62,737 bases of DNA. Source: a virus. The translations under genes and the position numbers were made by a program. Location of the stretch: positions 1-62,737 of IMG/VR virus record IMGVR_UViG_3300037752_000040; one strand, 5' to 3'. Below the pieces are notes generated by a model. It searched no databases. It was not told where the DNA came from and was given only the letters and a program-made list of their open reading frames with translations. Each line of letters begins with the position of its first letter. Positions within the stretch are counted from its first letter, which is position 1. Below, one piece after another: positions 14,825 to 62,094 of the stretch.

Positions 14825-14876
14825 ATATTGCCAAATAGGCAAAAAACAGTCAATGAGAAATTTGCCAAATAGGCAA
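14825..14876 (-). promoter_or_regulatory. PL-like promoter with two operator palindromes
   Basis: On the minus strand: TTGACT (14848-14853), a 17-nt spacer, then CAATAT (14825-14830). Palindrome TTGCCAAATAGGCAA occurs at 14828-14842 (in the spacer and -10 box) and again at 14862-14876. Confidence 0.6.
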
Positions 14877-14918
14877 CATTTCAGACATGACTAAAAAGCT
14901 GTGGTAATTTTGGCGCAG

Positions 14919-15527: not shown

Positions 15528-15584
15528 AGCGTCTTTTTATCCAAACCGATATGTCACACCAGACACAAATAGGAAAATTTTGCC

Positions 15585-16117: not shown

Positions 16118-16648
16118 ATGGTGACGATGGCCGCGCCGAAATGGACCGAAGCTGAAGATACGATGCTCCGAGATTTGACTGCAAAAGGATTTTCCTCTGC
16201 CCGCATCGCGCAGAGGTTACTGGACCGAGGCCGCAATGCGATCATCGGACGCCAGCACCGTCTTGGCTTGAAGGGTGGCCCGAAAAGCGGACCGAAGCCC
16301 CGCGCCAATGCGCCGTCCAGCATGCCCCTGAAACCACCGCGAGACCATCGCGACCACGCAACCATCAACGTCGCCAGATTGAACAGGCTTCGTGCAGAGA
16401 TGGAAGCCCCGGCGCCGGAACCGAAGCAGACGCCCGACGGCGCCCCGGTTCCGCTGATGATCACGCTGCTGGATCTCACCGATCAGATGTGCAGGTGGCC
16501 TGTCAATTCCCCGGAACGTGGCGGTGAATTCCTTTTCTGCGCTCACGAGAAAGGCCGCGGCTCACCCTATTGCAGCTTTCATGAGCGGATCGCATGGACC
16601 GGTCGCCCTGTTTCGCGCGCTACTCGCCCGACCAGGAGAGCAGCATGA
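16118..16648 (+). CDS. GcrA-like cell-cycle regulator homologue
   Basis: N-terminal WTEAEDTMLRDLTAKGFSSARIAQRL...RNAIIGRQHRLGL and C-terminal CRWPVN...FLFCAHEKGRGSPYCSFH match the two conserved GcrA blocks. Confidence 0.75.
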   Translation: MVTMAAPKWTEAEDTMLRDLTAKGFSSARIAQRLLDRGRNAIIGRQHRLGLKGGPKSGPKPRANAPSSMPLKPPRDHRDHATINVARLNRLRAEMEAPAPEPKQTPDGAPVPLMITLLDLTDQMCRWPVNSPERGGEFLFCAHEKGRGSPYCSFHERIAWTGRPVSRATRPTRRAA

Positions 16649-18144: not shown

Positions 18145-18906
18145 ATGAAACGTCTCACAATCAACACAATCCCGATCCTCGCCGCGAGTTTTTTCGCTCT
18201 GGCTGCATCGGCAAACGCGACGGATATTTTCGACCAGCGCCATGAAGTCACTGCTGATCAGGCACAGGTGAACTGGACCGGGCTATGGGTCGGCGCGGTC
18301 GGCGGGATGAATTTTTTCAACACCGAGACCGACTTCACTGAACATGATCACGATGACGGCAAGCTGGAGAAACATCTGAACGTTGACGGTCTTGGCGCTG
18401 AGGGTTTTTTTGGCGAAGCGCAAATCGGTTACGACCATCAAGTTAGCAACCAGCTTGTGCTGGGTATTTTCGGTGGCCTCAATCTGAGTGATGCCGAGTT
18501 TTCGGCCACAAACACCAACATCTTCAACGAGAACAAAGAATTCAGTGTTTCCACTGATTACGAGTGGGGCAGCGTTCTCGGTGCGCGTCTCGGTCTCCTG
18601 AAGTCGCAAGACACGATGTTCTATCTCGCTGGCGGCTGGGCTCACGCCGAACTCGGCGACACGATTATCAACGGAGAGACCTTCGCATCCGGCCCCAATC
18701 TCAATGGCTGGTTCGGCGAATTGGGTATGGAAACGCGCGTCACAGGCAATGTCTACCTGACGGTCTCCGGTAGGTACACCGACTATGGTTCTGAAACCCT
18801 ATGGGACAACAACCCAGGCGACGGGGAAGATCTGGAAGCTATCGAAATCGACACGGACAGTCTCGCCGCGATGGTTGGTCTCAAGGTCAAGCTCGGCGGC
18901 TTCTAA
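18145..18906 (+). CDS. outer-membrane beta-barrel protein (Omp25/Omp31-like), moron
   Basis: Signal peptide MKRLTINTIPILAASFFALAASANA, alternating beta-strand pattern, and a C-terminal ...VGLKVKLGGF ending in Phe. Confidence 0.65.
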   Translation: MKRLTINTIPILAASFFALAASANATDIFDQRHEVTADQAQVNWTGLWVGAVGGMNFFNTETDFTEHDHDDGKLEKHLNVDGLGAEGFFGEAQIGYDHQVSNQLVLGIFGGLNLSDAEFSATNTNIFNENKEFSVSTDYEWGSVLGARLGLLKSQDTMFYLAGGWAHAELGDTIINGETFASGPNLNGWFGELGMETRVTGNVYLTVSGRYTDYGSETLWDNNPGDGEDLEAIEIDTDSLAAMVGLKVKLGGF

Positions 18907-37888: not shown

Positions 37889-37918
37889 AAGCCCGCTCTC
37901 GCTCGAAGCGGGCTTTTT
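37889..37918 (+). terminator. rho-independent-type terminator hairpin
   Basis: A 9-bp stem, AAGCCCGCT (37889-37897) paired with AGCGGGCTT (37907-37915), followed by a T run to 37918. Flanked by CAAAACC on the other side, so it is potentially bidirectional. Confidence 0.6.
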
Positions 37919-38853: not shown

Positions 38854-40038
38854 ATGGCTACGACCACGACCCCGACCGACCTGATTGAGATCAGGTATCG
38901 GCGGGAATACTGGCGCGAATATGTGCGCCAGTCCGGCTTCATGCCCTATATGGGCGGGGGGAATGAGGGCATCAAATCCATCATCCACACCGCCTACGAA
39001 ATGACGACCAGCGGCAAGTCGCTGACGATCCCGTTGGTCTCCGCCCTGAGCGGCGGCGGCGTTCGCGGTAATACGCGTCTGTCCGGTCAGGAAGAACAGC
39101 TCGGCAAGCACAGTCACAGCGTCGCGGTGCAGATCGCCCGCCACGGTGTCGAGCTTTCCGAGCAGGACGAGCATTATGATTTCTCCAATGCTCGCGAGGC
39201 GGTGCGCCCGCTGCTTCAGGAATGGTCCCGTGTGCTTCTGCGTGACCGCATCATCGATGCGCTCGGCACGGTCGCTTATTCCTCAGTCAGCGCTCCGTCG
39301 TGCTCGACGTTCTTCGATCCCTTGAACTTCAAGGAGAACGTTGCGGCAAGCACGGCCCAGAAGGACACATGGACCGTCAACAACGTTGATCGTGTTCTGT
39401 TTGGGTCGGCGAAGTCAAACTATAATGCGACTTTCGCGACAGCGACAGCGAACATCGACAACACAGCCGACAAGCTGGATGCCGATCTCGTCTCGCTGCT
39501 CAAGGAAATCGCCAAGGATACTGCCACGAACGCCCGCACGAACGGCACGCCCGCCATTCGCCCGGTCCTCGACCAGTATTCCGAGAATGGCCGTGAGTAT
39601 TTCGTGCTGTTCTGCGGCTCCCGCCCGTTCCGTGACCTGAAAACGGACTCGACCATCCGCCAGGCCAATCGCGAGGCTCGCGCTCGTGAAGCTAGCGGCA
39701 TGGACAAGAACCCGATCTTCCAGGACGGCGATCTGATCTGGGATGGCGTGATCATTCGCGAAATCCCGGAAATCCCGGTCATGGAAGCTCAGGGTGCAGG
39801 CACCGCTGCGATCGACATCGCACCGGTCTTCCTGTGCGGCTGTCAGGCGGTCAGCGTTGGCTGGGGCAACATGCCCGAATTCCGCGCCAAGAAGGAAGAT
39901 GACTATGGCCAGTTCACTGGCATCGGCATCTCCGAAATGGCAGGGGCCAACAAGATCCAGCGCAAGGACGGCGTGTCCGGCACGCAGTACGACAATGGCA
40001 TGGTGACAGGTTTTGTCGCAGCCGTTGCTTCGGCATAA
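38854..40038 (+). CDS. major capsid protein
   Basis: 394 aa after the scaffold gene. N-terminal block EYWREYVRQSGFMPYMG resembles DUF4043-type podovirus capsid proteins. Confidence 0.7.
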   Translation: MATTTTPTDLIEIRYRREYWREYVRQSGFMPYMGGGNEGIKSIIHTAYEMTTSGKSLTIPLVSALSGGGVRGNTRLSGQEEQLGKHSHSVAVQIARHGVELSEQDEHYDFSNAREAVRPLLQEWSRVLLRDRIIDALGTVAYSSVSAPSCSTFFDPLNFKENVAASTAQKDTWTVNNVDRVLFGSAKSNYNATFATATANIDNTADKLDADLVSLLKEIAKDTATNARTNGTPAIRPVLDQYSENGREYFVLFCGSRPFRDLKTDSTIRQANREARAREASGMDKNPIFQDGDLIWDGVIIREIPEIPVMEAQGAGTAAIDIAPVFLCGCQAVSVGWGNMPEFRAKKEDDYGQFTGIGISEMAGANKIQRKDGVSGTQYDNGMVTGFVAAVASA

Positions 40039-40062: not shown

Positions 40063-40521
40063 ATGGCTACGTATGAAACTATCCTTTCCGGTCGCCGTGG
40101 CGAGGTCATGGGACCCGGTTGGGGACGCGAGGAGATTGTCGTCACAGCGATCGTCGCTCTTCCGTCTGCGGCGGTCAGCAATGCCGATGATGACACTGGC
40201 CTGTTTTATGTGCCGGCTGGCTTCGTTGTGACCGGCATTACGGCTTCCGCCACCGATCTTGACGGCGCCACGACCAATGCTCTGCGTATCGACATTGGCG
40301 ATGCCGACGATGAAAATCGTCTTATGGCGGCAGCGGATCTGTCGTCTGCAATCAGCTCGACCTTGGCCCTCGCCGGGCATCTCTACAAATACACGGTGAA
40401 GACGCAGATCCGTGCTTATGTAGAGACCGCTGCAACCACGGCAGCCGCCGGAACGCTGAAGGTGTCCCTGAAGGGCTTCGTCGATCCGGACTTCAGCACA
40501 ACTGCTATCACGGCCGCATAA
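40063..40521 (+). CDS. head decoration / cement-like protein
   Basis: 152 aa immediately after the capsid gene. Ala/Thr/Ser-rich C-terminus. Confidence 0.4.
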   Translation: MATYETILSGRRGEVMGPGWGREEIVVTAIVALPSAAVSNADDDTGLFYVPAGFVVTGITASATDLDGATTNALRIDIGDADDENRLMAAADLSSAISSTLALAGHLYKYTVKTQIRAYVETAATTAAAGTLKVSLKGFVDPDFSTTAITAA

Positions 40522-40529
40522 GCCTGAGT

Positions 40530-41156
40530 GTGCTTCAAACAGTAACGCCGCGGTGGCGCAGTTGCATCATCGCGGCGTCCGGCCCGTCCATGTGTCAGGA
40601 CGTGGCCGATCAGTGCAGGGGCCGCAATGTGATCGCGGTCAACGACACATACAAGCTGCATCCATGGGCCGATGTGCTTTATTGCGGCGATGGCGAGTGG
40701 TGGCATGTGCATAAGGGTGCGCCAGAGTTTGAAGGCGAGCGCTGGGCGGCTTATAATGACAAATATCGCCCCGAAGAGATGCGGAAGGCTGCCGAGCTTT
40801 ACGATATAAAGCTGATTTACGCGATGTATGGCGACGGATTTTCGCCAAAGCCGGACACACTGCACTACGGGGCGAATTCGGGCTATGCGGCCGTGAACCT
40901 AGCGCTGCATTTCGGGTGCAAGACGATCGTTCTGACCGGCTTCGACATGCGCTATATCGATGGCAAGTGTCACTGGTTCGGGCTTCATGCCTTCGGGAGC
41001 AATCCGAAGAGCGATTTTACCGACTGGCTGACTCGCTTTGAGGGCGCAGCCGCGACAGTGCCGGACGATGTGCGGATCGTGAACGCGACGCCGGGCAGTG
41101 CGCTGAGATGTTTCGAGATGATGGACCTGAAAGACGCATTGGAGTTGATTGATTGA
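40530..41156 (+). CDS. DUF115 / MptE-like (Maf-type) putative glycosyltransferase
   Basis: GTG start. IIAASGPSM and GANSGYAAVNLALHFGCKTIVLTGFDMRY match the two conserved DUF115 blocks. Confidence 0.6.
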   Translation: MLQTVTPRWRSCIIAASGPSMCQDVADQCRGRNVIAVNDTYKLHPWADVLYCGDGEWWHVHKGAPEFEGERWAAYNDKYRPEEMRKAAELYDIKLIYAMYGDGFSPKPDTLHYGANSGYAAVNLALHFGCKTIVLTGFDMRYIDGKCHWFGLHAFGSNPKSDFTDWLTRFEGAAATVPDDVRIVNATPGSALRCFEMMDLKDALELID

Positions 41157-42211
41157 TGTTCGCTAAGCGGTTCCAGCATTTAGGCGAGATCGAGCGCAAG
41201 CGTATCGTGATGCCGGACAATACGCGAATGCGCCTCAACCGGCTGGAGCGTCCGCAGCCTTGGGAAGATGAACTGCAACGCCGGATCGTTGAGACATTCC
41301 GGCCCGATCAGATCCAGCAATACCCGAATTATCAGCCATTTTACGAGCGGCTTGCCGAGTTTGCCGGTTGCGGCACGGACGAACTTGTCGTTGGTGCGGG
41401 GATCGAGGAATTCATCCGCAATCTGTTCATGCTCTGCATCGAACCGGGCGACAAGGTGGCCTACCTCTGGCCGACATGCGCGATGTTCGATGTCTATGCG
41501 CGGGTGTTTCAGGCCGAGCCGGTGCGGATCGTGACAGATCCGAGGAAAACGTTCAACGGCTTCGACTTGGCCTTGAGCCTGCCGGAGGATCTGAAGCTGT
41601 TGATCCTCACCCAGCCGGGCCAGCCTGTCGATGCGATGCTCCAGCCGCATGATATCAGAAAGCTTGCGGACCTGTGCAAGGAACGCGGCGCGGTGTTGGC
41701 GCTTGATGAAGCCTATCATGGGTTCGGAGCTTTGACGGATGTATCCCGGCCGCGATATGACGATCATGTCGTCAGTTTGCGGACCTTCTCCAAGGCGTTC
41801 GGAGCAGCTTCCATCCGCCTAGGCTATGCTACAGGCAACGGCCGGATCATCCACGCCTTGAATGCCGTCAGGCAGTCCGGCGAGGTCAGCGCATTCTCGA
41901 TGCATGCCGCCACGGTGCTCATGGACCATCACGAAAGCCATGTGAAGCCTGCCATCAGGGACATCTGTGACGGCAGGGACTGGCTTCGCAACATGGTGCA
42001 GGAAGAACTCGGCCTTCGGGCATGGGGCCATCACGCCAACCATGTCCTGATCGAGATGTCGAACGCGGCGGAAGTGGCCAAGCGCCTTGCCGGCAAGGGC
42101 GTGCTGGTGAAAGCAGGCTTTCCGGCCCCGATCGACAGCCACATGCTCGTCACCTGCGGCGATCGCGACCTGATGACAACCTTCTGCGCGGAGTTGATGG
42201 CAGCCCTATGA
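41153..42211 (+). CDS. class I/II PLP-dependent aminotransferase (HisC/CobD-like)
   Basis: 352 aa. LALDEAYHGF and the PLP-lysine block LRTFSKAFGAASIRLGY. ATGA overlaps at both ends. Confidence 0.75.
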   Translation: MMFAKRFQHLGEIERKRIVMPDNTRMRLNRLERPQPWEDELQRRIVETFRPDQIQQYPNYQPFYERLAEFAGCGTDELVVGAGIEEFIRNLFMLCIEPGDKVAYLWPTCAMFDVYARVFQAEPVRIVTDPRKTFNGFDLALSLPEDLKLLILTQPGQPVDAMLQPHDIRKLADLCKERGAVLALDEAYHGFGALTDVSRPRYDDHVVSLRTFSKAFGAASIRLGYATGNGRIIHALNAVRQSGEVSAFSMHAATVLMDHHESHVKPAIRDICDGRDWLRNMVQEELGLRAWGHHANHVLIEMSNAAEVAKRLAGKGVLVKAGFPAPIDSHMLVTCGDRDLMTTFCAELMAAL

Positions 42212-42873
42212 GCGAGCATGTATTCACCGAGACAGACGGCAAACTGGAGTTCGTCGGTAATTTCGACGCGCTTTACCTTGAGGAAGATGACCCTTGGGGG
42301 CAGAGCGCCGAAGGCGGCGACATGGCGACTTATTACACAGCCAGTCGTACCAATTTGTACAGGGCAATCCTCGCAAACACCAGATCCATGATCGTTGCCG
42401 GACTTGATATTGGCTGTGGTCACGGTTGGTCAACGGATCATCTTGCCAAGACCGGCGGCACGTGGGCAGGATTAGACATTTCGTTCGAGGCAATCGAGGC
42501 GGCGCTGGAAATACATCCGCTCCATGATTATTTTCACGGCGATATCCGCAACTATGACTGTCTCCCGCGCCATCATGAGAACTTCTACGATGTTGTCGTG
42601 CTCTCGGAAATCCTCTGGTACGTTCTGGACCGGCTGGACGATGCAATGGCCAATGCCGCACGCTTCTGCGCTCCTGGCGGACTCCTGTGCGTCTCACAGG
42701 CGTTCCTGAAAGGCGAGCAGCGCTACGGTGCCGAGATCGCCAACGGCTTCCACGGAGCCTTGAAGCTGTTTCTGGAGCGCTTCCCGTCATTGACGCTGGT
42801 CGAAGCGACATACGATGACAGCAACAGCCTTGCCCACAATCACGGGCTGATGATTTTCAGGAAGCCTGCCTGA
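42208..42873 (+). CDS. class I SAM-dependent methyltransferase (NodS-like N-terminus)
   Basis: The ATG at 42208 forms an ATGA overlap. DPW motif followed by motif I GLDIGCGHGWST. Confidence 0.7.
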   Translation: MSEHVFTETDGKLEFVGNFDALYLEEDDPWGQSAEGGDMATYYTASRTNLYRAILANTRSMIVAGLDIGCGHGWSTDHLAKTGGTWAGLDISFEAIEAALEIHPLHDYFHGDIRNYDCLPRHHENFYDVVVLSEILWYVLDRLDDAMANAARFCAPGGLLCVSQAFLKGEQRYGAEIANGFHGALKLFLERFPSLTLVEATYDDSNSLAHNHGLMIFRKPA

Positions 42874-43736
42874 TGCTCACCGAAGCCACGAAGGCCAATC
42901 TACGGCGCAAGGCAGCTTTCGTCGATCGGGTGCAGATGCGTGATGGCGTTCCGATGCCGTCATTGATTGAGCTGAATCTGACCGAGCTATGCAATCGCAA
43001 ATGCGTATTCTGCCCGCGTGTCGACGGCAATGTTTACCCAAATCAGGCGCTGCACATGTCGCTCGATCTGGCCAGGAAGATTGCAGACGATCTGCGCGGC
43101 ATCGAATACCGCGGCACCGTGACCTTGTGCGGGTACGGCGAGCCGATGCTGCACCCGAAATTACCGGAACTGGTTGCCTTGTTCGGTGATATTCGCGTCG
43201 AGATCGTCACCAATGGCGATTTCCTTGATGCCAACCGCATCCGGCAGCTTGCCGAGGCCGGCATCGATTATTTCATCGTCAGCATGTATGACGGCCCCGA
43301 GCAGATCGAGAAGTTCGAGGCAGCATTCGCCGAGGCGGAATGCACAAATTACCTGCTTCGCGACCGCTGGCATACCGAGGCTGACGAATTCGGGCTGAAG
43401 CTGACGAACCGTGCCGGCAGCGTCGATATCGGGCCGCAGGAACCCGTCGATCAGTCGCGAGCCTGTTTCTACCCATCATATCAGATGATGATCGACTGGA
43501 ACGGCGACGTTCTCTTGTGCCCGCAAGACTGGTCGAAATTGCATCGTCACGGCTCGCTGGCGTTCCAGACCGTAATGGAAGTCTGGACATCCAAAGCGCT
43601 CCACAAGCGCCGCATGCAGCTTGTCGCTGGTCGCCGATGCACCGCGCCGTGCAATGGCTGCAATACGGACGGCCAGCTTCACGGCTTCGTGCATGCCGAC
43701 ATCTGGAACGCCAGCGGATCGCGGCAGGTTGCCTGA
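42873..43736 (+). CDS. radical SAM enzyme with C-terminal Cys-rich (SPASM/twitch-like) region
   Basis: CX3CX2C motif (CNRKCVFC). C-terminal cysteines CFYPS...LLCPQDW...CTAPCNGC. Confidence 0.75.
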   Translation: MLTEATKANLRRKAAFVDRVQMRDGVPMPSLIELNLTELCNRKCVFCPRVDGNVYPNQALHMSLDLARKIADDLRGIEYRGTVTLCGYGEPMLHPKLPELVALFGDIRVEIVTNGDFLDANRIRQLAEAGIDYFIVSMYDGPEQIEKFEAAFAEAECTNYLLRDRWHTEADEFGLKLTNRAGSVDIGPQEPVDQSRACFYPSYQMMIDWNGDVLLCPQDWSKLHRHGSLAFQTVMEVWTSKALHKRRMQLVAGRRCTAPCNGCNTDGQLHGFVHADIWNASGSRQVA

Positions 43737-44462
43737 GTGATCATCAGTAATGCAATCCCGAAGGCGGGGGGGCATCTTCTTTACGCTTATCTCGGCGCGT
43801 GCGGGTTGAAGAAAGAGCCAGGCGAATTGTATGCCGATGTCGATGTTGATGGTGATGGCCATGCATGCCGCCGAGAAGTCACGGGCAGCCAGAAAGACAT
43901 CTGGGACGGGATTGCCGTTCGCGATCCCGAGACCATGCTGGCGGACATGGAACGCAAGGCCGTCATCAACGCGCATGTGCATGATAAGATCGATCTTTCC
44001 GGACATGCCGTCGCGTTCATGTATAGGAACCCGCGCAACCTGCTGTACTCCTATGCGCGTTTTTCCGCTGCCGATTTCAACTGGAATCCTCCGGTCAGGG
44101 AGCCGAGCGACAAGGCGGTGCGCTCGCGCATGCAGCCGTCTTACATGCGACAGATCGTTGGACAGTGCCGTTGCTTTCACGGATGGCTTTCAAAATCCGA
44201 TATCGCGGTCAGGTTCGAGGATTTCATCGCCGATCCGGACACGACGGGCAAGGCGATCGCCGCTGCGCTCGGCATCGGTTTCGCCGATCCGTCCAAGGTC
44301 ATTGGAGAGTCGACGCCCTGGGTAACGTTGAGATATCGCGGAACATGGTCAGGCCAACTCAGCGACTGGCGACAGGTCTGGAACGATAGGCTTGACGCAC
44401 AGTGGAGGGCCGCAGGCGGTTACGAAGTCGAAGCGGGCTACGGATATAAAAATAAATGCTGA
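43737..44462 (+). CDS. sulfotransferase-like protein
   Basis: The GTG start directly follows the upstream TGA. 5'-PSB-like IPKAGGH, 3'-PB-like YRNPRNLLYSYARF, and VRFEDFIADP. Confidence 0.6.
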   Translation: MIISNAIPKAGGHLLYAYLGACGLKKEPGELYADVDVDGDGHACRREVTGSQKDIWDGIAVRDPETMLADMERKAVINAHVHDKIDLSGHAVAFMYRNPRNLLYSYARFSAADFNWNPPVREPSDKAVRSRMQPSYMRQIVGQCRCFHGWLSKSDIAVRFEDFIADPDTTGKAIAAALGIGFADPSKVIGESTPWVTLRYRGTWSGQLSDWRQVWNDRLDAQWRAAGGYEVEAGYGYKNKC

Positions 44463-45481
44463 CCGTTGTTGTGGGTCACGGCCGATCCACCGAGGGCCAG
44501 GGCTGGGGACCGCTGATCGACAGCGCTGATCGCGTCGTCCGGATGTGGAACTGGCACTGGTGCGACATGAAAGATTACGGCACCCGCTACGATTGGGGTC
44601 TGATCGAAATCCATCCTTGTCTCACACAATGGAAACAGCACAACAAGTGCCAGCCGAGCCAGGGGTGGGTCGCATCGCTGCTGATGGAAGATCGGGATTA
44701 TCGGTTTCCTGACAACACCTCGATCATAGACCAGTGCGAATTCTTGAACTCCATTCCGGAGCAGTTCCAGGGGTGCGGCGAGACCGGCACATGGCAGTTG
44801 ACCCGCGGAGGAGTGGCGGCGTGCTGGGCGATCTCGACGGCACAGGAAGGCGACAGCCTGATCCTTGTCGGCTTTGACGTGATCAAGGATGGCGTTGCAA
44901 TGGCGGTCGATGAAGCCTTCAGCCCTGAATACATGGCGTCGGAAGGCTTTTTTGGCATCAGCACTTTCAAGGAAGGCGCGACCAAGGAAGGCAACCACGA
45001 CTATCCCGCCGAGCGCTATCTGATCGAGACGATGGGGAAATGCGCCGGCGTTGCCGTGGTCTTTGCAGAAGACGAATGGCCTTTGAATATCAAGCGCGTT
45101 CCAAAGCAGAAATTCATCAAGCGAATTTTGACCGGAGATAATGAATCCATGAAGTTCCGTTATATCGGCGTGTACCCGGCCGGGCAACAGGAGATCACGG
45201 CGTATGGCTGCAAGTTCACGCCATTTACCGAGGTTGAAGTGCCCGAGCAATGGCTGGAAAAGTTCACCGGAAACAGGTTTTTCGAGCTTGTCGTGGACTA
45301 TGAACTCGTTCCGGTAGAGCCGGAACCGGAAGAGGAACCGCGCAATCGCCTGCTCGATGCAATGCCTTCGGATAAGGATGATCTCATTGCCCTGGCAGGA
45401 GAACGCGGCGTCAAGATCGATAAGCGATGGAATGCCGACAAGATCGCCGCCGCCATCGTGGACGCTGAAAATGGCGAATGA
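44456..45481 (+). CDS. sialyltransferase-like / second DUF115-like glycosyltransferase with C-terminal HeH-like motif
   Basis: VVVGHGRS...DRVVRMWNW and TRGGVAACWAI...LILVGFDV resemble the CstII/GT42 or DUF115 layout. The C-terminus DDLIALAGERGVKIDKRWNADKIAAAI is SAP/HeH-like. Confidence 0.5.
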   Translation: MLTVVVGHGRSTEGQGWGPLIDSADRVVRMWNWHWCDMKDYGTRYDWGLIEIHPCLTQWKQHNKCQPSQGWVASLLMEDRDYRFPDNTSIIDQCEFLNSIPEQFQGCGETGTWQLTRGGVAACWAISTAQEGDSLILVGFDVIKDGVAMAVDEAFSPEYMASEGFFGISTFKEGATKEGNHDYPAERYLIETMGKCAGVAVVFAEDEWPLNIKRVPKQKFIKRILTGDNESMKFRYIGVYPAGQQEITAYGCKFTPFTEVEVPEQWLEKFTGNRFFELVVDYELVPVEPEPEEEPRNRLLDAMPSDKDDLIALAGERGVKIDKRWNADKIAAAIVDAENGE

Positions 45482-46080: not shown

Positions 46081-46563
46081 GTGCTCGGCTTTGCCCCTCT
46101 CGCAGCGCTTCCTCTTGCAGATGACACCACCGGGCGCATTGCATCGGCAGCCATCACCGAGGCAGCAGATACGCTGGCCTCGACTGCTGTCCTGTCGATT
46201 ACTGGCGCAGCGTCTATCACGGAAGCGGCAGATACTCTCTCCGCAACCGCGGCTCTCCAGATATTGGCCGATGCTGCAATCACTGAAGCGGCAGACACGC
46301 TTTCCTCAACCGCTACCAAAGAAATCTTCGGCGTTGCGGTCATCACCGAAGCGGCTGATACGCTCAGCGCTACGGCGCTCAAGGTCATCAGGGGGCGCAT
46401 TCGAGGCGTTACGAGCGGAGCAACGCGGGCAGATGGGTCATTTGGCGGCGCTGTGCGAGCCGCTGGCGTCGCCGGGGGCGGCAACAGATCGGCCGGCTCG
46501 ACCGGTGGTGGTGTGCGCGCCGGAGGCACGACGGGCGGCGGTAGAAGGGCATATGGAAACTGA
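46081..46563 (+). CDS. virion protein with four ITEAADTL repeats and a Gly-rich tail
   Basis: GTG start, 160 aa. Four 21-22-aa repeats. Confidence 0.5.
   Translation: MLGFAPLAALPLADDTTGRIASAAITEAADTLASTAVLSITGAASITEAADTLSATAALQILADAAITEAADTLSSTATKEIFGVAVITEAADTLSATALKVIRGRIRGVTSGATRADGSFGGAVRAAGVAGGGNRSAGSTGGGVRAGGTTGGGRRAYGN
46153..46392 (+). repeat. four tandem repeats of about 63 nt, coding
   Basis: The ITEAADTL(A/S)(S/A)TA units begin atcaccgaggcagcagatacgctg, atcacggaagcggcagatactctc, atcactgaagcggcagacacgctt and atcaccgaagcggctgatacgctc. The differences are synonymous. Confidence 0.8.
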
Positions 46564-48697: not shown

Positions 48698-49387
48698 TTA
48701 AATACGTTTCCATGTTTTGCGGTTTAGAATGCACCAAATCGTACATTTTGATACGTGGAAACGGCCCGCAAGTTCAGGAATGCTCAATGCGCCTTCCAGG
48801 CTGCGAATTTCCAGCACGTCGTTAACTGACAGCTTCGCCCTTACAGTTCCGTGCTGAAGTTTGTCTGATTCATTTTCGACGGGGGTCGCCCATCGCAAGT
48901 GATTAGCTGTACAGCACAGTGGATTTCGTAAGCACGAATGAGCAACCTGATGATCAGGTGATGGCGGCGGGCCGTGCCTATGCTCGCAGACTATGCGCAT
49001 AACATAGCAATTTTTCCCGTCCACCTTAAGAGAAGCATAGTCTCCTGATTTATTGAATGGCCAGACTAAGCATTCGTCGCCGTTGTAAGGCAGAACGACT
49101 TGCTTTAAATAGTCGAGAGCGGTTCCAGGTGGGTTTCTGGTCGCAGTGACCGCGCCAGTCCGTAACAGGCGACTGTAATGGATGTCGCAATAGCCTTTTG
49201 CGGTATGAGGTTCGCCACAATTTGGGTAGGTGCATGTTCCTCGTGCTTTGCGTATTCGAGGTATGAGCGGGTCGCCATGTTTACGCCAAGCATCGTAATG
49301 CTTAGTGCACCACCCTCTCGCAATACGAGGCTTGTCACAGCCTTCGACAGAGCATAAACGTTCGGCGGGCATATCGGACCTCCACAA
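48698..49387 (-). CDS. HNH homing endonuclease inserted in the structural operon
   Basis: Repeated C..C/H Zn-finger modules (CSVEGCDKP...GWCTKHY; CTYPNCGEP...GYCDIHY) and the HNH core HQVAHSC...CCTANHLRWATPVENESDK. AT-rich and on the opposite strand. Confidence 0.7.
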   Translation of the reverse strand: MWRSDMPAERLCSVEGCDKPRIARGWCTKHYDAWRKHGDPLIPRIRKARGTCTYPNCGEPHTAKGYCDIHYSRLLRTGAVTATRNPPGTALDYLKQVVLPYNGDECLVWPFNKSGDYASLKVDGKNCYVMRIVCEHRHGPPPSPDHQVAHSCLRNPLCCTANHLRWATPVENESDKLQHGTVRAKLSVNDVLEIRSLEGALSIPELAGRFHVSKCTIWCILNRKTWKRI

Positions 49388-56164: not shown

Positions 56165-57826
56165 ATGCCTGATTCAGTCGCTATCCTGCCGCCTGGCTGG
56201 CGTGCTCTTGACGCTAACGGCGATCCCTTCACGGATGCCGTTTTGTCGTTTTTCGACGCCGGCACGTCGGACACCCTTGAAGTCTTTTCGGATTCTGGAT
56301 TATCCACGTCCCTCGGGGTAACGGTAGACTGCAACGCAGGCGGCGAGCCGGTCACGAGCGGCAATGTCCCGACGTTGATTTACACCGGGACAGACCCGTA
56401 CAAGATTACGATTTCGTCGACCATCGGCGGCTTTACGCGAACCTTCGATAACGTCAAGGGCGCGCTCGATACATCAGCGTTTCTGACATCTGCCGCCGTT
56501 GCCGACCAGTCCGTCGTCAATATCTCCGCTAACCGTTCCATCTTAGCCGCAGACAAGGGCAAGCTGATCAACGTGAACTGCTCCGGCGGCGCGTTGACGA
56601 TGACGCTCGCAGACGCCGCGACGCTCGGCGACGGGTTTTTCGTCGGCATCCGGCATGCTGGCACGGCAAATCAGGTCAAGATCACCGGAGACGGCACAGA
56701 CACATTCGCCATTCCCGGAGCCAGCCCGATAGGGTTCTCGCTTACCGGCCTCGGCCATACCGTCTGGTTAGCCTGCGACGCCACGAACTTCAAGATCCAT
56801 TCCGAGTGCCCGCCGCTGATCGGTGGCACGATCGGCGTTATCGTCATTGCGGACCGGCTGTCAACGCCGCCAGGATCGCCAACGCCCGGCGCGCGGTATA
56901 TCGTTGGGTCGTCCCCAACGGGCGACTGGTCTGGTTTTGCTCAGCACGACATTGCCGAGGCGGACGGGTTCGGCACATGGTTCAATTACACCCCCGCAAC
57001 AGATAGCGGTTGGATCGCCTACGTACAGGATGAAGATCTGAGTTATCAGTTCAACGGGTCGTCATGGCGTCCGATGGTTGCCTCCATCGGGGCCGCAAAC
57101 GGACTGGTTATCGTCAACAACTCCGGCACCCCGACGACCTCGATTGATGTTGACGCAACCGAAGCAGTCCTGACGGATTCACAGGGGATCGGCATCAGGG
57201 TCAGTTCAATCGACCTCACGGTTGCTTGTGCGGGAACTGGTGCAAACGGCCTCGACGCTGGATCGCTTGCGAATAATACATGGTATCATTTTTATATCAT
57301 CAGCGACGGCGCAACGACGGCCGGACTCGCGAGTACATCGGCAACGTTGGCGACGTTGCCGAGCGGGTATACTTATAAATACCGGGTCGGGGCGATCAGG
57401 ACTGGCGGCAGCGCGACGTTCACTCGGATCAGACAGGTCGGCAACCGGGCGCAGTACGTGGTTGTAACAAGTTCTACGACGCCAAACGCGCCGATCATGG
57501 ACACAGGTATAGCCGGAAGCACCACCGTCCCCACATGGGAAGCGGTGGCGACGGGCGCATATGTTCCGCCGACCGCCACATGCATCACAGGGTTCGTCTC
57601 GTCTACAACAGGAGACGATGATTTTATCGTTGCTCCAAATAATAGTTACGGGGCGATAGCCTCTGCAACCAATCCGTCGCCCGTGCAAAATCAAGGAGTA
57701 GCTGGATATAACATAACCATTCCGTTCGATTTTGTCCTGGAGAGTTCCGATATCTATTGGGCGGCCAATACAGCAGACGTGCTTATCGCATGCACAGGCT
57801 GGGTCGATGCAGTGAATGCGAATTAG
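56165..57826 (+). CDS. tail fibre / tailspike
   Basis: 553 aa. The N-terminus ILPPGWRALDANGDPFTDAVLSFFDAGTSDTLEVFSD resembles the conserved podovirus tail-fibre N-terminal domain. Confidence 0.6.
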   Translation: MPDSVAILPPGWRALDANGDPFTDAVLSFFDAGTSDTLEVFSDSGLSTSLGVTVDCNAGGEPVTSGNVPTLIYTGTDPYKITISSTIGGFTRTFDNVKGALDTSAFLTSAAVADQSVVNISANRSILAADKGKLINVNCSGGALTMTLADAATLGDGFFVGIRHAGTANQVKITGDGTDTFAIPGASPIGFSLTGLGHTVWLACDATNFKIHSECPPLIGGTIGVIVIADRLSTPPGSPTPGARYIVGSSPTGDWSGFAQHDIAEADGFGTWFNYTPATDSGWIAYVQDEDLSYQFNGSSWRPMVASIGAANGLVIVNNSGTPTTSIDVDATEAVLTDSQGIGIRVSSIDLTVACAGTGANGLDAGSLANNTWYHFYIISDGATTAGLASTSATLATLPSGYTYKYRVGAIRTGGSATFTRIRQVGNRAQYVVVTSSTTPNAPIMDTGIAGSTTVPTWEAVATGAYVPPTATCITGFVSSTTGDDDFIVAPNNSYGAIASATNPSPVQNQGVAGYNITIPFDFVLESSDIYWAANTADVLIACTGWVDAVNAN

Positions 57827-58518
57827 GCGGTTACAGCATAAGCCAGTCTTCTGGCTGAATCCTTGAACTGCGTCAGCTTTCCGCCCTTCCAGAGTTCATG
57901 ACGGGGCTGGATCGCATTGATGGATGATGCATGCAATACGTTGTGAATTACCGGCTCTGGCCAGACGCCAAGCGTTCTGACCTTGTGCTCCCAAACTCTG
58001 GCCAGGTCAAAATCAATGGGAGCTGTGCGCTGCGTCTTCCATTCGATGAACCGCCGCGCACCCGCAGGCGTGATCAGGTAAGATCCCGTATTCATGGGGA
58101 TGCGCAGATAGCGGACGACTTTATAGCCTCCTGACAAATCCGCCTGAGTGAGAATAATGCGTTTCTTGCGGATCGAGCTTATCCGCAAAATATCGAAAGG
58201 CAGGTCGAGACTGAGGATTTCTTCCAGCAGATCGGGGAATTCCGGCTTGAGCCGCTCGTCATCTTCAAAGACAAGCCCCGGCTTGCCGCTCAATTCAACC
58301 TGCCTCATGACGCTGAGGTGGCTTGCGTAGCAGCCTATTTCTCCCCGGCTTAGGTCCGAGCCGGTAAAATATGGCGCGAGCCAATCAGGCAGATCTTTGC
58401 CACGTATTGCTGAGAACCGCTCATACGCAATTCCCAGATCCTTGAACTGACTATCCATGAATTCGAGACGGTCTTTGTCAGCATCAAGATTAATTAAATA
58501 GACCGGAATGTTTTTCAT
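57823..58518 (-). CDS. glycosyltransferase family 25-like (LPS/LOS modification), moron
   Basis: ATG at 58518 (MKNIPVYLINLDADKDRLEFMDSQF...) and GEIGCYASHLSVM match GT25 blocks. AT-rich, opposite strand, between the two fibre genes. Confidence 0.65.
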   Translation of the reverse strand: MKNIPVYLINLDADKDRLEFMDSQFKDLGIAYERFSAIRGKDLPDWLAPYFTGSDLSRGEIGCYASHLSVMRQVELSGKPGLVFEDDERLKPEFPDLLEEILSLDLPFDILRISSIRKKRIILTQADLSGGYKVVRYLRIPMNTGSYLITPAGARRFIEWKTQRTAPIDFDLARVWEHKVRTLGVWPEPVIHNVLHASSINAIQPRHELWKGGKLTQFKDSARRLAYAVTA

Positions 58519-58588
58519 CTGAAATCCCCTCAATATACCCAGAAACAACCTTACAAACCTCTCCCCATGAAAGCAAGCATCAGATAAA

Positions 58589-61941: not shown

Positions 61942-62006
61942 ATCCGCCCGGTTAAACGTCCGGCAAAAGGACGTTTACTGGCTCGCGACAGAAAAATGAC
62001 GGGAAG

Positions 62007-62094
62007 GGCCGGGGCGGGACTCGAACCCGCTCTACCTCCGGAATCGAACCGTTTGACAGCGCTCATGCGCTGCGGCGACCAACGCTCCCCGACC
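62007..62094 (-). other. 88-nt tRNA-like element (non-canonical; possible attP core or degenerate tRNA)
   Basis: On the minus strand: a 7-bp acceptor-type stem GGTCGGG/CCCGGCC (one G-U pair) and a canonical T arm GCGGG-TTCGAGT-CCCGC. A second T-loop-like motif GGTTCGATTCC lies 22 nt upstream. I could not fold a 5-bp stem with a 7-nt anticodon loop, and no CCA is encoded. Confidence 0.4.

What the first reader, a model, noticed from the sequence alone, without database searches (positions are those of the whole stretch)
40530..45481. Six-enzyme modification cassette wedged between head and tail genes: candidate virion glycan / post-translational modification system
Six co-oriented genes lie directly after the capsid and decoration genes and before the tail genes. 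They are joined by 4-nt overlaps or by a GTG start directly following a TGA, so they should be co-expressed with virion proteins.

Motif-level calls:
- DUF115/MptE(Maf)-like enzyme (IIAASGPSM; GANSGYAAVNLALHFGCKTIVLTGFDMRY)
- HisC-like PLP aminotransferase (LRTFSKAFGAASIRLGY)
- NodS-like SAM methyltransferase (DPW; GLDIGCGHGWST)
- radical SAM enzyme (CNRKCVFC) with a C-terminal Cys cluster
- sulfotransferase-like enzyme (IPKAGGH; YRNPRNLLYSYARF)
- a second Rossmann-type sialyltransferase/DUF115-like enzyme

Maf/DUF115 proteins are known for attaching nonulosonic acids to flagellin. An aminotransferase, N-methyltransferase and sulfotransferase together fit tailoring of an amino-sugar-type adduct. 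Virion glycosylation cassettes downstream of capsid genes are described for some actinophages. I know of no described equivalent with this enzyme set in alphaproteobacterial phages.

A DNA hypermodification role is the main alternative. It is less favoured because I see no hydroxymethylase, DNA kinase, DpdA/TGT or glucosyltransferase-type partner.
Basis: partly seen in the sequence, partly recalled or inferred. Interest (0 to 1): 0.85.

Follow-up and report, generated by a model that had tools for sequence, protein, structure and literature searches.

The report
Mobile glycan-tailoring cassette in phage head genes
A temperate alphaproteobacterial phage carries six tightly packed enzyme genes inside its head-gene operon; they most likely build and tailor a sugar coat on virion proteins, and the same cassette recurs in several unrelated phage lineages but has never been studied.

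Summary
Six co-oriented, abutting or overlapping genes (40530-45481) follow the capsid gene and a putative decoration gene.

All six motif calls survive testing:
- g1 is GT42/DUF115-like.
- g2 has a HisC-type PLP fold, but the C-terminal substrate arginine is missing.
- g3 is a NodS-like SAM methyltransferase.
- g4 is a BtrN-type radical-SAM dehydrogenase (E 4e-21, all cluster cysteines aligned).
- g5 has a PAPS-sulfotransferase fold.
- g6 has a sialyltransferase-fold domain fused to a small LEM/YqbF-like protein.

The core g2-g3-g4-g6N is a mobile unit. All 13 IMG/VR contigs with a close g4 homologue carry it in the same order. Every phage copy with readable flanks lies inside a head-morphogenesis module, across five different head types.

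Sister phages that are about 89-94% identical in flanking DNA carry a classical cassette at the same slot: two glycosyltransferases, a methyltransferase and a nucleotide-sugar enzyme. That cassette is swapped together with the decoration gene.

A g3-g4 pair also sits beside flagellin genes in Paraglaciecola. No DNA-hypermodification partner was found.

Best reading (about 0.55): late-expressed glycosylation and tailoring of virion proteins, converting OH to C=O to NH2 to NHMe, plus sulfation. The target and the sugar are inferred, not shown.

This is a new variant of a known kind.

The parts
38854..40038 (+). Major capsid protein. It is a candidate acceptor. DNA homology to the sister phage L007 ends exactly at its 3' end.
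   Evidence: PF13252 3e-38 and PHROG 334 5.5e-60. Homology to L007 stops at 40038. The 63 amino-acid differences from L007 cluster at residues ~140-220 and ~300-320.
40063..40521 (+). Putative head decoration or auxiliary protein (152 aa). It is exchanged together with the enzyme cassette and is the favoured candidate acceptor.
   Evidence: No Pfam or PHROG hit. The L007 counterparts are two Thr-rich paralogues, 39% identical over 132 aa to the window protein by tblastn, with a weak PHROG 8455 'virion structural' hit. It lies inside the swapped segment 40039-45317.
40530..41156 (+). g1: GT42/DUF115 (CstII/Maf)-like putative glycosyltransferase that would use a CMP-activated ulosonic acid.
   Evidence: PHROG 4603 'alpha-2,3-sialyltransferase' 3.7e-41. 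PF01973 scores 26.5 bits, below its cut-off. In a profile search of PDB the eight best hits are all CstII/CstI; the E-value is weak (0.3), but the GPS and SG..A..LG...L.G.D motifs align. Homologues stand next to head-tail adaptor genes in D3/PMG1.
41153..42211 (+). g2: class I/II PLP aminotransferase with a HisC-like fold and divergent substrate pocket.
   Evidence: PF00155 5.8e-32. TIGR01141 scores 173 bits against a cut-off of 276. Best PDB hits are HisC, at 5e-20. The PLP lysine in TFSKAFG is invariant. The residue aligned to the HisC 'LRIT' arginine is never Arg in 10 family members.
42208..42873 (+). g3: class I SAM methyltransferase, NodS-like (putative N-methyltransferase).
   Evidence: Methyltransf_11 2.2e-14. 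NodS scores 23.2 bits against a cut-off of 24. NCBIfam NodS 3.7e-9 is far below its cut-off. NodS is listed for homologues in L013, L014, L015, L022 and L046.
42873..43736 (+). g4: BtrN-type radical-SAM dehydrogenase with one auxiliary Fe-S cluster domain.
   Evidence: Radical_SAM 8.8e-14 and SPASM 2.7e-11. It matches BtrN (4m7t) at E 3.7e-21 over residues 29-265. The motifs CNRxCxxC, YGEP and TNGDFL align, as do the four auxiliary-cluster cysteines.
43737..44462 (+). g5: PAPS-type sulfotransferase-fold enzyme. It is a recurrent accessory that stands directly after g4.
   Evidence: Sulfotransfer_3 reaches only E 0.0019. The AF2 model has pLDDT 88. Foldseek finds 60 PDB hits at E<=1e-3, and the 50 listed are all sulfotransferase-fold proteins, 49 of them sulfotransferases. 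K9 in PKxGG and R97/S105 are invariant. The gene occupies the same slot in two other phage lineages.
44456..45100 (+). g6N: sialyltransferase-fold (GT29/GT42-like) domain, residues ~1-215 of g6.
   Evidence: No Pfam or PHROG hit. The AF2 model has pLDDT 88. Foldseek against PDB gives ST6GALNAC2, ST8SiaIII, ST3Gal and CstII at E 8.5e-6 to 1e-2. Foldseek against viral models gives GT29 and DUF115 proteins. H181 (nearly invariant, >=90%) and invariant E186 form an H-x4-E motif. The family has only 44 clusters, most of 211-217 aa.
45146..45481 (+). g6C: small LEM/HeH- and YqbF-like domain. It is a free-standing 103-aa gene in sister phages. An internal ATG with an upstream GGAG could also give a free form.
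   Evidence: 60% identical by tblastn (63% in the locus scan) to the stand-alone 103-aa ORFs of L006-L008. There are weak fold matches to YqbF 2hjq (E 0.044) and to viral LEM/HeH proteins. The fusion is conserved in 7 clusters. DNA homology to L007 resumes at 45318. The internal start context was read.

Best explanation
The cassette is most likely a late-expressed, horizontally mobile system that glycosylates exposed virion proteins and then tailors the glycan. The steps below are inferred from enzyme families.

1. The two sialyltransferase-fold proteins (g1 and g6N) transfer a CMP-activated ulosonic acid from the host pool to an acceptor. The phage encodes no sugar-nucleotide pathway, so CMP-Kdo or a nonulosonic acid is the likely donor. 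The acceptor is most likely the co-swapped decoration protein and/or surface loops of the capsid protein.
2. g4, a BtrN-type radical-SAM dehydrogenase, oxidises a sugar hydroxyl to a carbonyl.
3. g2, the PLP aminotransferase, converts the carbonyl to an amine.
4. g3, the NodS-like methyltransferase, N-methylates the amine.
5. g5 adds sulfate from PAPS.
6. The C-terminal LEM/YqbF-like domain of g6 may dock the enzyme at the assembling head.

The following points are shown by tool results:
- the enzyme families and folds;
- the tight packing of the genes inside the head operon;
- strict co-occurrence and conserved order of g2-g3-g4-g6N;
- a location inside the head module in five head-module types;
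- replacement by a classical glycosyltransferase cassette in sister phages.

The following points are only inferred:
- the acceptor;
- the donor sugar;
- the order of the steps;
- whether tailoring happens on the protein-bound glycan or on the donor.
For: **Enzyme identities.**

**Expression.** The junctions are translationally coupled and no promoter or terminator signal exceeds chance.

**Co-occurrence.**
- All 13 IMG/VR loci whose g4 is at least 53% identical carry g2 upstream of g4.
- Twelve of the 13 also show g3 and g6N in the same order. L029 has g2 directly abutting g4 and its contig ends inside g4.
- Loci with g4 at 39% identity or less carry none of the partners apart from one weak g1-like hit in L045.

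**Location in head modules.**
- The window type.
- HK97-like phages, between the capsid or adaptor gene and the head-closure gene.
- Mu-like phages, between the portal and Mu F.
- Terminase_6/DUF4055-portal phages (with a Gp13-like capsid where that gene is in view).
- A Mesorhizobium loti prophage, between the portal and the scaffold.

**Swap with a classical cassette.**
- Sister phages L006-L008 carry GT + GT4 + methyltransferase + nucleotide-sugar SDR at the same slot.
- In L007 the replaced segment begins exactly after the capsid gene and ends inside the g6C homologue, so it includes the decoration gene(s).

**Further links.**
- Fusion proteins tie g6N to g1 (P0034) and to the small head-region protein.
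- A g3-g4 pair (37% and 55% identity), with a different class of aminotransferase, lies beside flagellin and FleQ genes in Paraglaciecola aquimarina.
- The variable slot after g4 holds other tailoring enzymes: methyltransferases, a 2OG-Fe oxygenase, an FkbM methyltransferase or the sulfotransferase.
- The phage has a separate GT25 LPS glycosyltransferase on the opposite strand among its tail-fibre genes. That is the usual arrangement for lysogenic conversion.
Against: - There is no direct evidence for any glycan or for the acceptor.
- No sugar-nucleotide synthesis gene was found in the window.
- g1 and g6N are only remote relatives of sialyltransferases. The sequence E-value is 0.3 and the fold TM-scores are 0.36-0.45. 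The DUF115 superfamily also includes a pyrophosphokinase (MptE).
- g2 is not of the DegT type usually used for keto-sugars.
- Head modules of the Mu-like relatives also hold a non-structural counter-defence gene (Acb1). Position alone therefore does not prove a virion role.
- The HeH/LEM-type motif of g6C could bind DNA rather than capsid.
- The decoration protein is only 52% identical in L001, which carries the same cassette.
Confidence: 0.55

Rival explanations
1. The cassette remodels a host surface glycan such as flagellin glycan, LPS or capsule. This could serve lysogenic conversion or superinfection exclusion. It could also mask receptors late in infection so that progeny are not trapped on debris.
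For: - The phage is temperate: it has an integrase, a CI-like repressor and RecT.
- g3-g4 homologues sit in a bacterial flagellin-associated island.
- Sialyltransferase-fold and sulfotransferase enzymes are typical of surface-glycan pathways.
Against: - The genes are translationally coupled inside the late head operon and have no promoter of their own.
- The phage already has a GT25 LPS gene in the classical moron position, on the opposite strand.
- No flippase, polymerase or membrane component was seen.
- The position inside the head module is conserved across five lineages.
- One enzyme is fused to a small head-region protein.
Confidence: 0.15
2. The cassette carries out a post-replicative DNA hypermodification, at or before packaging, that protects the genome from restriction.
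For: - Radical-SAM and PLP enzymes take part in known thymidine hypermodification pathways (own knowledge: Lee et al. 2018 PNAS).
- The phage encodes a C5-cytosine methyltransferase.
- Some relatives add a 2OG-Fe oxygenase.
- g6C has a HeH/LEM-like motif.
- The cassette lies next to the packaging genes.
Against: - No thymidylate-synthase-like hydroxymethylase, 5-HMUDK-type kinase, aGPT-Pplase, DpdA/TGT, TET/JBP or DNA polymerase was found in the ORFs of at least 190 aa that were scanned.
- The oxygenases in the relatives are of the prolyl-hydroxylase type (2OG-FeII_Oxy_3), and the window has none.
- g4 is BtrN-like rather than a relative of a DNA or nucleoside enzyme.
- The preprint on DNA glycosylation never mentions radical SAM, aminotransferase, sialyltransferase or sulfotransferase.
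- The alternative cassette in the sister phages is a standard protein or polysaccharide glycosylation set.
Confidence: 0.1
3. The cassette is an auxiliary biosynthetic pathway for a free small molecule made during infection. An N-methylated aminocyclitol or amino sugar (inosamine-like) is one possibility.
For: - BtrN acts on a free aminocyclitol, and the trio dehydrogenase + aminotransferase + methyltransferase is the logic of aminocyclitol biosynthesis (own knowledge).
- g4 matches BtrN over its full length.
- The one cultured host is a rhizobium.
Against: - The core is strictly linked to sialyltransferase-fold proteins and placed in head modules.
- One enzyme is fused to a head-region protein.
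- The cassette is interchangeable with a glycosyltransferase cassette.
- No exporter or resistance gene was seen.
Confidence: 0.08
4. The cassette modifies amino-acid side chains of a virion protein directly, without a glycan. For example, a Ser/Thr hydroxyl would be oxidised as by anSME, then transaminated, methylated and sulfated.
For: - Radical-SAM enzymes with SPASM or twitch domains include protein-modifying dehydrogenases such as anSME (own knowledge).
- The cassette lies in the head operon.
Against: - The best match of g4 is BtrN, not anSME or a peptide maturase, and it has no RRE domain.
- Two or more sialyltransferase-fold proteins would be left without a role.
- Relatives add further GT-like proteins.
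Confidence: 0.07

Closest known systems
Virion glycosylation cassettes of actinobacteriophages (Freeman et al. 2023, Cell Host Microbe; cited as ref. 80 in PMC12582341; see also PMC11256854)
   Same: - Enzyme genes sit next to capsid genes in the late operon and include methyltransferases.
- The presumed product is a glycan on capsid or tail proteins.
- The sister phages L006-L008 carry just such a GT + GT + methyltransferase set at the same slot.
   Different: - The hosts are alphaproteobacterial or marine Gram-negative bacteria.
- The window has no GT-A or GT-B glycosyltransferase. It has sialyltransferase-fold proteins, a radical-SAM dehydrogenase, a PLP aminotransferase and a sulfotransferase instead.
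- No biochemical proof exists here.
Flagellin O-glycosylation islands with Maf/DUF115 transferases (Campylobacter, Helicobacter, Aeromonas, Magnetospirillum)
   Same: - A DUF115/GT42-like transferase is combined with tailoring enzymes.
- The acceptor is a surface-exposed, self-assembling structural protein.
- g3-g4 homologues lie beside flagellin in Paraglaciecola.
   Different: - g1 is 208 aa, against roughly 600 aa for Maf (own knowledge), and falls below the PF01973 cut-off.
- The ORFs scanned contain no nonulosonic-acid biosynthesis genes.
- The presumed acceptor is a virion protein, not flagellin.
BtrN / BtrS step of butirosin (2-deoxystreptamine) biosynthesis
   Same: - A radical-SAM dehydrogenase with one auxiliary cluster is followed by a transamination that turns a secondary alcohol into an amine.
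- g4 aligns with BtrN over its full length, including all cluster cysteines.
   Different: - The partner aminotransferase is of the HisC type, not the DegT type.
- The genes sit in a phage head operon alongside glycosyltransferase-like proteins.
- The substrate is unknown.
Kdo8N formation (KdnB/KdnA, Shewanella) and Cj1437-type HisC-like aminotransferases of Campylobacter capsule tailoring (own knowledge)
   Same: Oxidation followed by transamination puts an amino group on an ulosonic acid or on a glycan substituent. HisC-fold aminotransferases do occur in glycan tailoring.
   Different: - The oxidant here is a radical-SAM enzyme, not a metal-dependent alcohol dehydrogenase.
- No sequence relationship to these enzymes was tested.
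Thymidine hypermodification clusters of phages ViI, M6, SP10 and PhiW-14 (Lee et al. 2018; own knowledge)
   Same: A phage gene cluster contains both radical-SAM and PLP enzymes.
   Different: - Those clusters need a dUMP hydroxymethylase, a 5-hmdU DNA kinase and aGPT-Pplase. They lie in replication modules of lytic phages.
- None of these partners was found here.

Membership tests
GT42 / DUF115 (CstII, Maf, MptE-like; PF01973), for g1 | Score above the Pfam gathering threshold for PF01973 | tested here: not met
   26.5 bits against a cut-off of 34.6; only residues 110-144 match.
GT42 / DUF115 (CstII, Maf, MptE-like; PF01973), for g1 | N-terminal G-x-G-P-S nucleotide-binding strand and central S-G...A..L-G....L.G.D motif, as in CstII | tested here: met
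   Both motifs are invariant in 7 family members. Both align to CstII (IIAGNGPSL; SGVYMCAVAIALGYKEIYLSGIDF). The eight best PDB hits are all CstII/CstI, but the E-value is only 0.3. PHROG 4603 scores 3.7e-41.
GT42 / DUF115 (CstII, Maf, MptE-like; PF01973), for g1 | Transfer from a CMP-activated ulosonic acid | not testable with these tools
   This needs an enzyme assay.
GT29-like sialyltransferase fold, for g6N | Structural similarity to solved GT29/GT42 enzymes | tested here: met
   Foldseek matches ST6GALNAC2 at E 8.5e-6, and also ST8SiaIII, ST3Gal and CstII, all at probability 0.98-1.0. TM-scores are only 0.34-0.45. Viral GT29 and DUF115 models also match.
GT29-like sialyltransferase fold, for g6N | Sequence membership (PF00777) and the full set of sialylmotifs L, S, III and VS | tested here: not met
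   The window protein has no Pfam hit. The M. loti homologue reaches only E 0.022. Only an H-x4-E motif resembling motif VS is conserved (the motif definition is from memory).
BtrN-type radical-SAM dehydrogenase, for g4 | CX3CX2C radical-SAM cluster motif | tested here: met
   CNRKCVFC aligns to BtrN CNRTCWYC. PF04055 scores 8.8e-14.
BtrN-type radical-SAM dehydrogenase, for g4 | A single auxiliary 4Fe-4S cluster with four cysteine ligands in a short C-terminal domain | tested here: met
   The four cysteines align with those of BtrN (C-x18-C ... C-x2-C). The match runs over the full length at E 3.7e-21. These cysteines are invariant in 25 homologues.
BtrN-type radical-SAM dehydrogenase, for g4 | Oxidation of a secondary alcohol of a cyclitol or sugar | not testable with these tools
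   This needs reconstitution with SAM and a reductant, plus candidate substrates.
Histidinol-phosphate aminotransferase HisC (TIGR01141), for g2 | Score above the curated equivalog cut-off | tested here: not met
   173.1 bits against a cut-off of 276.55.
Histidinol-phosphate aminotransferase HisC (TIGR01141), for g2 | PLP-binding lysine in the S-K-x-F motif | tested here: met
   TFSKAFG aligns to HisC TLSKAFA, and K214 is invariant.
Histidinol-phosphate aminotransferase HisC (TIGR01141), for g2 | C-terminal arginine that binds the substrate phosphate or carboxylate (the 'LRIT' Arg; role and numbering from memory) | tested here: not met
   The aligned residue is Leu in the window protein and Leu, His or Met in the other 9 family members.
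NodS N-methyltransferase, for g3 | Score above the Pfam or NCBIfam cut-off | tested here: not met
   PF05401 scores 23.2 against 24. NF041650 scores 36.5 against 300. The generic class I SAM methyltransferase domains are clearly met (Methyltransf_11, 54 bits).
PAPS-dependent sulfotransferase, for g5 | Sulfotransferase fold | tested here: met
   Foldseek finds 60 PDB hits at E<=1e-3. The 50 listed are all sulfotransferase-fold proteins, 49 of them sulfotransferases, with TM-scores of about 0.45-0.60.
PAPS-dependent sulfotransferase, for g5 | 5'-PSB loop (PKxG) and 3'-PB Arg/Ser pair | tested here: met
   In 9 sequences P8-K9-x-G11 and R97...S105 (R-x7-S) are invariant, as are H80 and H90. The motif definitions are from memory.
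PAPS-dependent sulfotransferase, for g5 | Score above the Pfam cut-off (PF13469) | tested here: not met
   19 bits against 27. Three homologues carry a precomputed PF13469 hit.
Phage virion glycosylation system (actinophage type) | Glycosylation genes embedded next to capsid genes in the late operon | tested here: met
Phage virion glycosylation system (actinophage type) | GT-A or GT-B glycosyltransferases | tested here: not met
   The window cassette has none. They are present in the alternative cassette of the sister phages L006-L008.
Phage virion glycosylation system (actinophage type) | Glycan demonstrated on capsid or tail proteins | not testable with these tools
   This needs virion mass spectrometry or glycoprotein staining.
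Phage DNA hypermodification cluster | A source of 5-hydroxymethylpyrimidine (TS-like hydroxymethylase, or methyltransferase + TET) together with a DNA kinase, transferase or DpdA | tested here: not met
   The only relevant hit among the ORFs scanned is a C5 DNA methyltransferase. No hydroxymethylase, TET/JBP, kinase, DpdA or DNA polymerase was found. ORFs shorter than about 150 aa were not all scanned.

The most novel reading that the evidence does not exclude
Tailed phages of alphaproteobacteria and marine bacteria coat their heads with an ulosonic-acid-based glycan. The glycan is aminated, N-methylated and in some phages sulfated, by a mobile head-module cassette. The key step is a radical-SAM dehydrogenase acting on a glycan already attached to protein. 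That would be the first radical-SAM-dependent glycan tailoring on a virus particle. It would also be the first defined virion glycosylation system in phages of Gram-negative hosts. Interchangeable cassettes would act as a 'serotype switch' for the capsid surface.
Probability: 0.35. Interest if true: 0.85.

Novelty: new variant of a known kind. Interest (0 to 1): 0.7.

Why it matters
- Virion glycosylation is established experimentally only for actinobacteriophages and some giant viruses. In actinobacteriophages it changes immune recognition.
- If this cassette glycosylates virions, capsid-surface chemistry would be a horizontally exchangeable trait in many uncultured phages of alphaproteobacteria and marine bacteria.
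- Such a trait could affect adsorption, stability, grazing or antibody recognition, and phage engineering.
- The cassette also offers a compact set of enzymes for OH to NHMe conversion and sulfation on a displayed scaffold: a BtrN-like dehydrogenase, an atypical HisC-fold aminotransferase, a NodS-like methyltransferase, a small sulfotransferase and minimal sialyltransferase-fold proteins.
- One cultured carrier, Mesorhizobium loti DSM 2626, makes the idea directly testable.

Tried and rejected
- **Near-identity DNA search against 50,697 GenBank phages.** It found nothing. The capsid has only distant relatives, at 27-40% identity.
- **Cultured phages.** A protein search with g4 against the phage collection found no close homologue. 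The only hits are Campylobacter phage 'BtrN' proteins at 26% identity, which lie in an unrelated context.
- **Single-sequence PDB searches.** g1 and g5 gave nothing useful. Fold or profile methods were needed.
- **Profile comparison of g1 with g6N.** The result is weak: probability 26% over one motif. I do not claim they are paralogues, only that both have a sialyltransferase-like core.
- **Distant g4 relatives (32-39% identity) in marine viral contigs.** They lack the partner genes. A Pfam scan of one neighbourhood was uninformative. I therefore exclude them from the cassette.
- **Solo g4 homologue in a Rhodospirillaceae MAG.** It has no partner genes.
- **Tandem Repeats Finder on the repeat-containing ORF.** It found nothing. 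The repeat finder did find the repeats.
- **Literature.** Searches for sialyltransferase with capsid or head-tail, for PmgO, for BtrN with bacteriophage, and for flagellin glycosylation with radical SAM gave nothing relevant. The Freeman 2023 paper is not held.
- **Recent foreign insertion.** I considered and rejected this, because the GC and GC3 of the cassette match the structural genes.

Full report

Yes. The region 40530-45481 holds six + strand ORFs of 208, 352, 221, 287, 241 and 341 aa.

The junctions, read from the sequence:
- g1/g2 is TGATG.
- g2/g3 is ATGA.
- g3/g4 is TGATG.
- In g4/g5 a TGA is followed at once by GTG.
- g5/g6 overlap by 7 nt.
- g6 overlaps the next gene by 11 nt.
- g1 starts 8 nt after the stop of the preceding 152-aa ORF.

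Promoter-like and terminator-like sites are no more frequent than in shuffled sequence, and none separates the cassette from the head genes. GC and GC3 of the six genes match the portal and capsid genes.

Upstream lie terminase, portal, scaffold, the major capsid protein (PF13252 3e-38; PHROG 334 5.5e-60) and the 152-aa ORF. That ORF has no family hit and is called 'decoration' by position only. Downstream lie a PHROG 3758 virion structural protein, three small ORFs and a head-closure Hc3 protein. The cassette therefore sits between head-shell genes and connector genes, rather than directly before tail genes.

**2. What are the six proteins?**

g1 (208 aa)
- It matches PHROG 4603 ('alpha-2,3-sialyltransferase') at 3.7e-41. 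It matches PF01973 (MptE-like/DUF115) only below threshold.
- A profile of seven family members finds CstII/CstI (GT42) as its eight best PDB hits. The E-value is weak (0.3), but both hallmark motifs align.

g2 (352 aa)
- It is a class I/II aminotransferase (PF00155 5.8e-32). It is closest to HisC but well below the hisC equivalog cut-off.
- The PLP lysine is conserved.
- The residue that aligns with the C-terminal HisC arginine is never arginine in ten family members. It has the HisC fold but is not a bona fide HisC.

g3 (221 aa)
- It is a class I SAM methyltransferase. It scores just below the NodS cut-off (23.2 against 24 bits).
- NodS is listed among the precomputed Pfam hits of several homologues.

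g4 (287 aa)
- It is the most informative protein. Besides Radical_SAM and SPASM domains, it matches the radical-SAM dehydrogenase BtrN over its full length (E 3.7e-21).
- The CX3CX2C motif, YGEP, TNGDFL and all four auxiliary-cluster cysteines align.

g5 (241 aa)
- Its Pfam hint is weak (Sulfotransfer_3, E 0.0019).
- The AlphaFold model is confident (pLDDT 88). Foldseek returns 60 PDB hits at E<=1e-3, and the 50 listed are all sulfotransferase-fold proteins, 49 of them sulfotransferases.
- The PKxG loop and an R-x7-S pair are invariant in the family.

g6 (341 aa)
- It has no Pfam or PHROG hit. The model has pLDDT 88.
- Residues ~1-215 match GT29 and GT42 sialyltransferases (E 8.5e-6 to 1e-2). 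They also match viral GT29 and DUF115 models.
- H181 (nearly invariant) and invariant E186 form an H-x4-E motif.
- Residues ~230-341 form a separate small domain that weakly resembles YqbF and phage LEM/HeH proteins.
- In sister phages this domain is a free-standing 103-aa gene. The fusion is conserved in seven protein clusters, and one relative fuses g6N to a g1-like domain instead.

**3. What kind of phage is this?**

The window is a 62.7-kb contig.
- It is temperate: it has an integrase, a CI-like repressor and RecT.
- It encodes GcrA, a regulator typical of alphaproteobacteria.
- It has a C5 DNA methyltransferase and a helicase.
- Among the ORFs scanned there is no DNA polymerase, thymidylate-synthase-like hydroxymethylase, DNA kinase, TET/JBP or DpdA.
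- A GT25 LPS glycosyltransferase lies on the opposite strand among the tail-fibre genes. That is the classical arrangement of a lysogenic-conversion gene and contrasts with the operon-embedded cassette.

**4. The cassette is a mobile, conserved unit tied to head genes**

- *Family sizes.* g6N is rare: 44 clusters among 5.8 billion proteins. g5 has 8 clusters. g4 has more than 2,300 relatives.
- *Co-occurrence.*
  - In IMG/VR, all 13 loci whose g4 is at least 53% identical carry g2 upstream of g4.
  - Twelve of the 13 also show g3 and g6N in the same order. L029 has g2 directly abutting g4 and its contig ends inside g4.
  - The cassette often has g1 upstream, and a second g1-like gene plus a ~276-aa GT-like gene downstream.
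  - Loci with g4 at 39% identity or less lack the partners apart from one weak g1-like hit in L045.
- *Location.* Every phage copy whose flanks could be read lies inside a head module:
  - HK97-like siphophages have capsid - small ORF - g1 - gp6-like adaptor - g2-g3-g4-g6N - ... - head closure.
  - Mu-like phages place it between Portal_Mu and Mu F.
  - Terminase_6/DUF4055-portal phages carry it in the head module; where the capsid gene is in view it is Gp13-like.
  - In the only cultured genome found among 185,579 species representatives, a prophage of Mesorhizobium loti DSM 2626 has it between the portal and the scaffold.
- *Variable slot.* The position after g4 holds the sulfotransferase (the window and two other lineages), extra methyltransferases, or a 2OG-Fe oxygenase plus an FkbM methyltransferase.
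- *g1 alone.* g1-like genes alone are common next to head-tail adaptor genes, for example in Pseudomonas phages D3 and PMG1 and as P1 PmgO.

**5. The module swap**

- *Flanking similarity.* Sister contigs L006-L008 share the flanking genes with the window. L007 spans both flanks and matches at 94% (portal) and 89% (scaffold-capsid and the g6C-downstream stretch) DNA identity.
- *Replacement cassette.* Between the capsid gene and the g6C homologue L007 carries two Thr-rich decoration paralogues, an 80-aa ORF, a 231-aa GT-like protein, a GT4-type glycosyltransferase, a methyltransferase and a nucleotide-sugar epimerase/dehydratase-type SDR. L006 and L008 carry the same enzyme set.
- *Breakpoints.* DNA homology to L007 stops at 40038, the end of the capsid gene. 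It resumes at 45318, inside g6C. The exchanged unit is therefore decoration gene(s) plus enzymes.
- *Capsid differences.* The capsid differences between the two types cluster in two internal stretches.
- *Meaning.* A textbook glycosylation set and the window cassette are thus alternatives at one locus. This is the strongest single argument that the window cassette also makes a glycan linked to the head surface.

**6. Bacterial counterpart**

In Paraglaciecola aquimarina, g3 and g4 homologues (37% and 55% identical) lie a few genes from flagellin and FleQ. With them are a class III aminotransferase, more methyltransferases, a carbamoyltransferase and other genes. The same dehydrogenase-methyltransferase pair therefore occurs with a non-homologous aminotransferase. 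That supports the oxidise-transaminate-methylate logic. The setting looks like a flagellin glycosylation island.

**7. Most likely mechanism (confidence about 0.55)**

- Expression is late, together with the head proteins. This is inferred from the gene packing.
- g1 and g6N transfer a CMP-activated ulosonic acid to a virion protein. The phage has no sugar-nucleotide genes, so the donor would come from the host; CMP-Kdo is the only one universal in Gram-negative bacteria. Both fold families use CMP-sugars. Weak Capsule_synth and GT29 hits in relatives point the same way.
- g4 oxidises a hydroxyl, g2 transaminates the carbonyl, g3 N-methylates the amine, and g5 sulfates.
- g6C may tether the enzyme to the assembling head.
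- The acceptor, the sugar and the order of steps are all inferred.

**8. Rivals**

- *Host-surface remodelling (0.15).* This is weakened by the late-operon embedding and by the separate GT25 moron.
- *DNA hypermodification (0.10).* This is weakened by the missing partner enzymes and by the nature of the alternative cassette. Three points keep it alive: the HeH-like motif of g6C, the C5 methyltransferase, and the oxygenases in some relatives.
- *Free small-molecule synthesis (0.08).*
- *Direct side-chain modification (0.07).*

One caveat applies to the location argument. Mu-like relatives also carry Acb1, a counter-defence gene, within the head module. Position alone is therefore not proof.

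**9. Comparison with known systems and novelty**

It works like actinophage virion glycosylation and like Maf-type flagellin glycosylation, with a BtrN/aminotransferase step borrowed from aminocyclitol chemistry. It fails curated membership thresholds for HisC, NodS, PF01973 and PF13469. It lacks the GT-A/GT-B enzymes of the actinophage systems.

No cultured phage in the GenBank collection has a close g4 homologue, and the literature searches found no description. I rate it a new variant of a known kind. Interest is 0.7: the system is widespread, chemically unusual and testable in a cultured rhizobium, but everything about the product is still inference.

Noticed in passing
window 46081-46563 (+): A 160-aa ORF just downstream of the cassette contains four tandem 63-nt (21-aa) repeats with the motif ITEAADTL(S/A)xTA. 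In L007 its homologue aligns over a 63-nt (one repeat) shorter stretch at 74% identity, whereas L006 and L008 keep the window's length at 97%. It is Ser/Thr-rich and could be a fibre-like or acceptor protein. It is 97% identical in L006 and L008, which carry the other cassette type, so it does not co-vary cleanly with the cassette.
   Followed up: partly
window 57823-58548 (-): A GT25-family LPS glycosyltransferase (PF01755 4.3e-24) lies on the opposite strand among the tail-fibre-like genes. It is probably a lysogenic-conversion moron that is independent of the cassette.
   Followed up: partly
window 48698-49387 (-), 5274-5918 (-), 9281-9886 (-): There are three HNH endonuclease genes. One is inserted on the opposite strand between the head-closure gene and the next virion gene.
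   Followed up: no
window 62006-62094 (-): ARAGORN reports a tRNA-like gene with a four-base anticodon (gtca) near the contig end. It could be an attachment-site remnant or an odd tRNA.
   Followed up: no
window 16118-16648 (+) and 18145-18906 (+): The early region encodes a GcrA cell-cycle regulator homologue (3.8e-27). It also encodes a protein with a borderline, sub-threshold match to outer-membrane beta-barrel domains (OMP_b-brl, 27.0 bits against a 28.7 cut-off). GcrA points to an alphaproteobacterial host.
   Followed up: no
L013 (Paraglaciecola aquimarina JAKGAS010000004) 10559-15570: Next to the g3-g4 homologues and flagellin lie an APS-kinase-like gene, a PPDK_N/PEP-utiliser protein, a C26 glutamine amidotransferase and an NTP_transf_3 gene. 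From memory this set resembles the Campylobacter Cj1415-Cj1418 phosphoramidate (MeOPN) pathway, so the flagellin glycan there may carry a phosphoramidate.
   Followed up: no
L014 17741-18721; L020 16499-17344: Mu-like phages that carry the cassette also have an Acb1 (anti-CBASS) homologue between Mu F and the capsid genes. Head modules in this group therefore do accept non-structural genes.
   Followed up: no
P0034 (460 aa; metagenomic): This is a natural fusion of a g6N domain with a g1-like domain in one polypeptide. It suggests that the two sialyltransferase-fold proteins act together.
   Followed up: partly
L021 (Pseudomonas phage PMG1) 4962-8341: D3-like phages have a g1-like gene between the capsid and head-tail adaptor genes. 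Three further genes, including a methyltransferase, lie between the head-closure and gp10-like genes. This may be a minimal relative of the system in a well-studied phage group. BLAST found no similarity between its 276-aa ORF and the cassette's ~276-aa family.
   Followed up: partly
window 37898-37913 (+): The only terminator-like hairpin in the head region that is directly followed by a run of five T's lies between the portal and scaffold genes.
   Followed up: no
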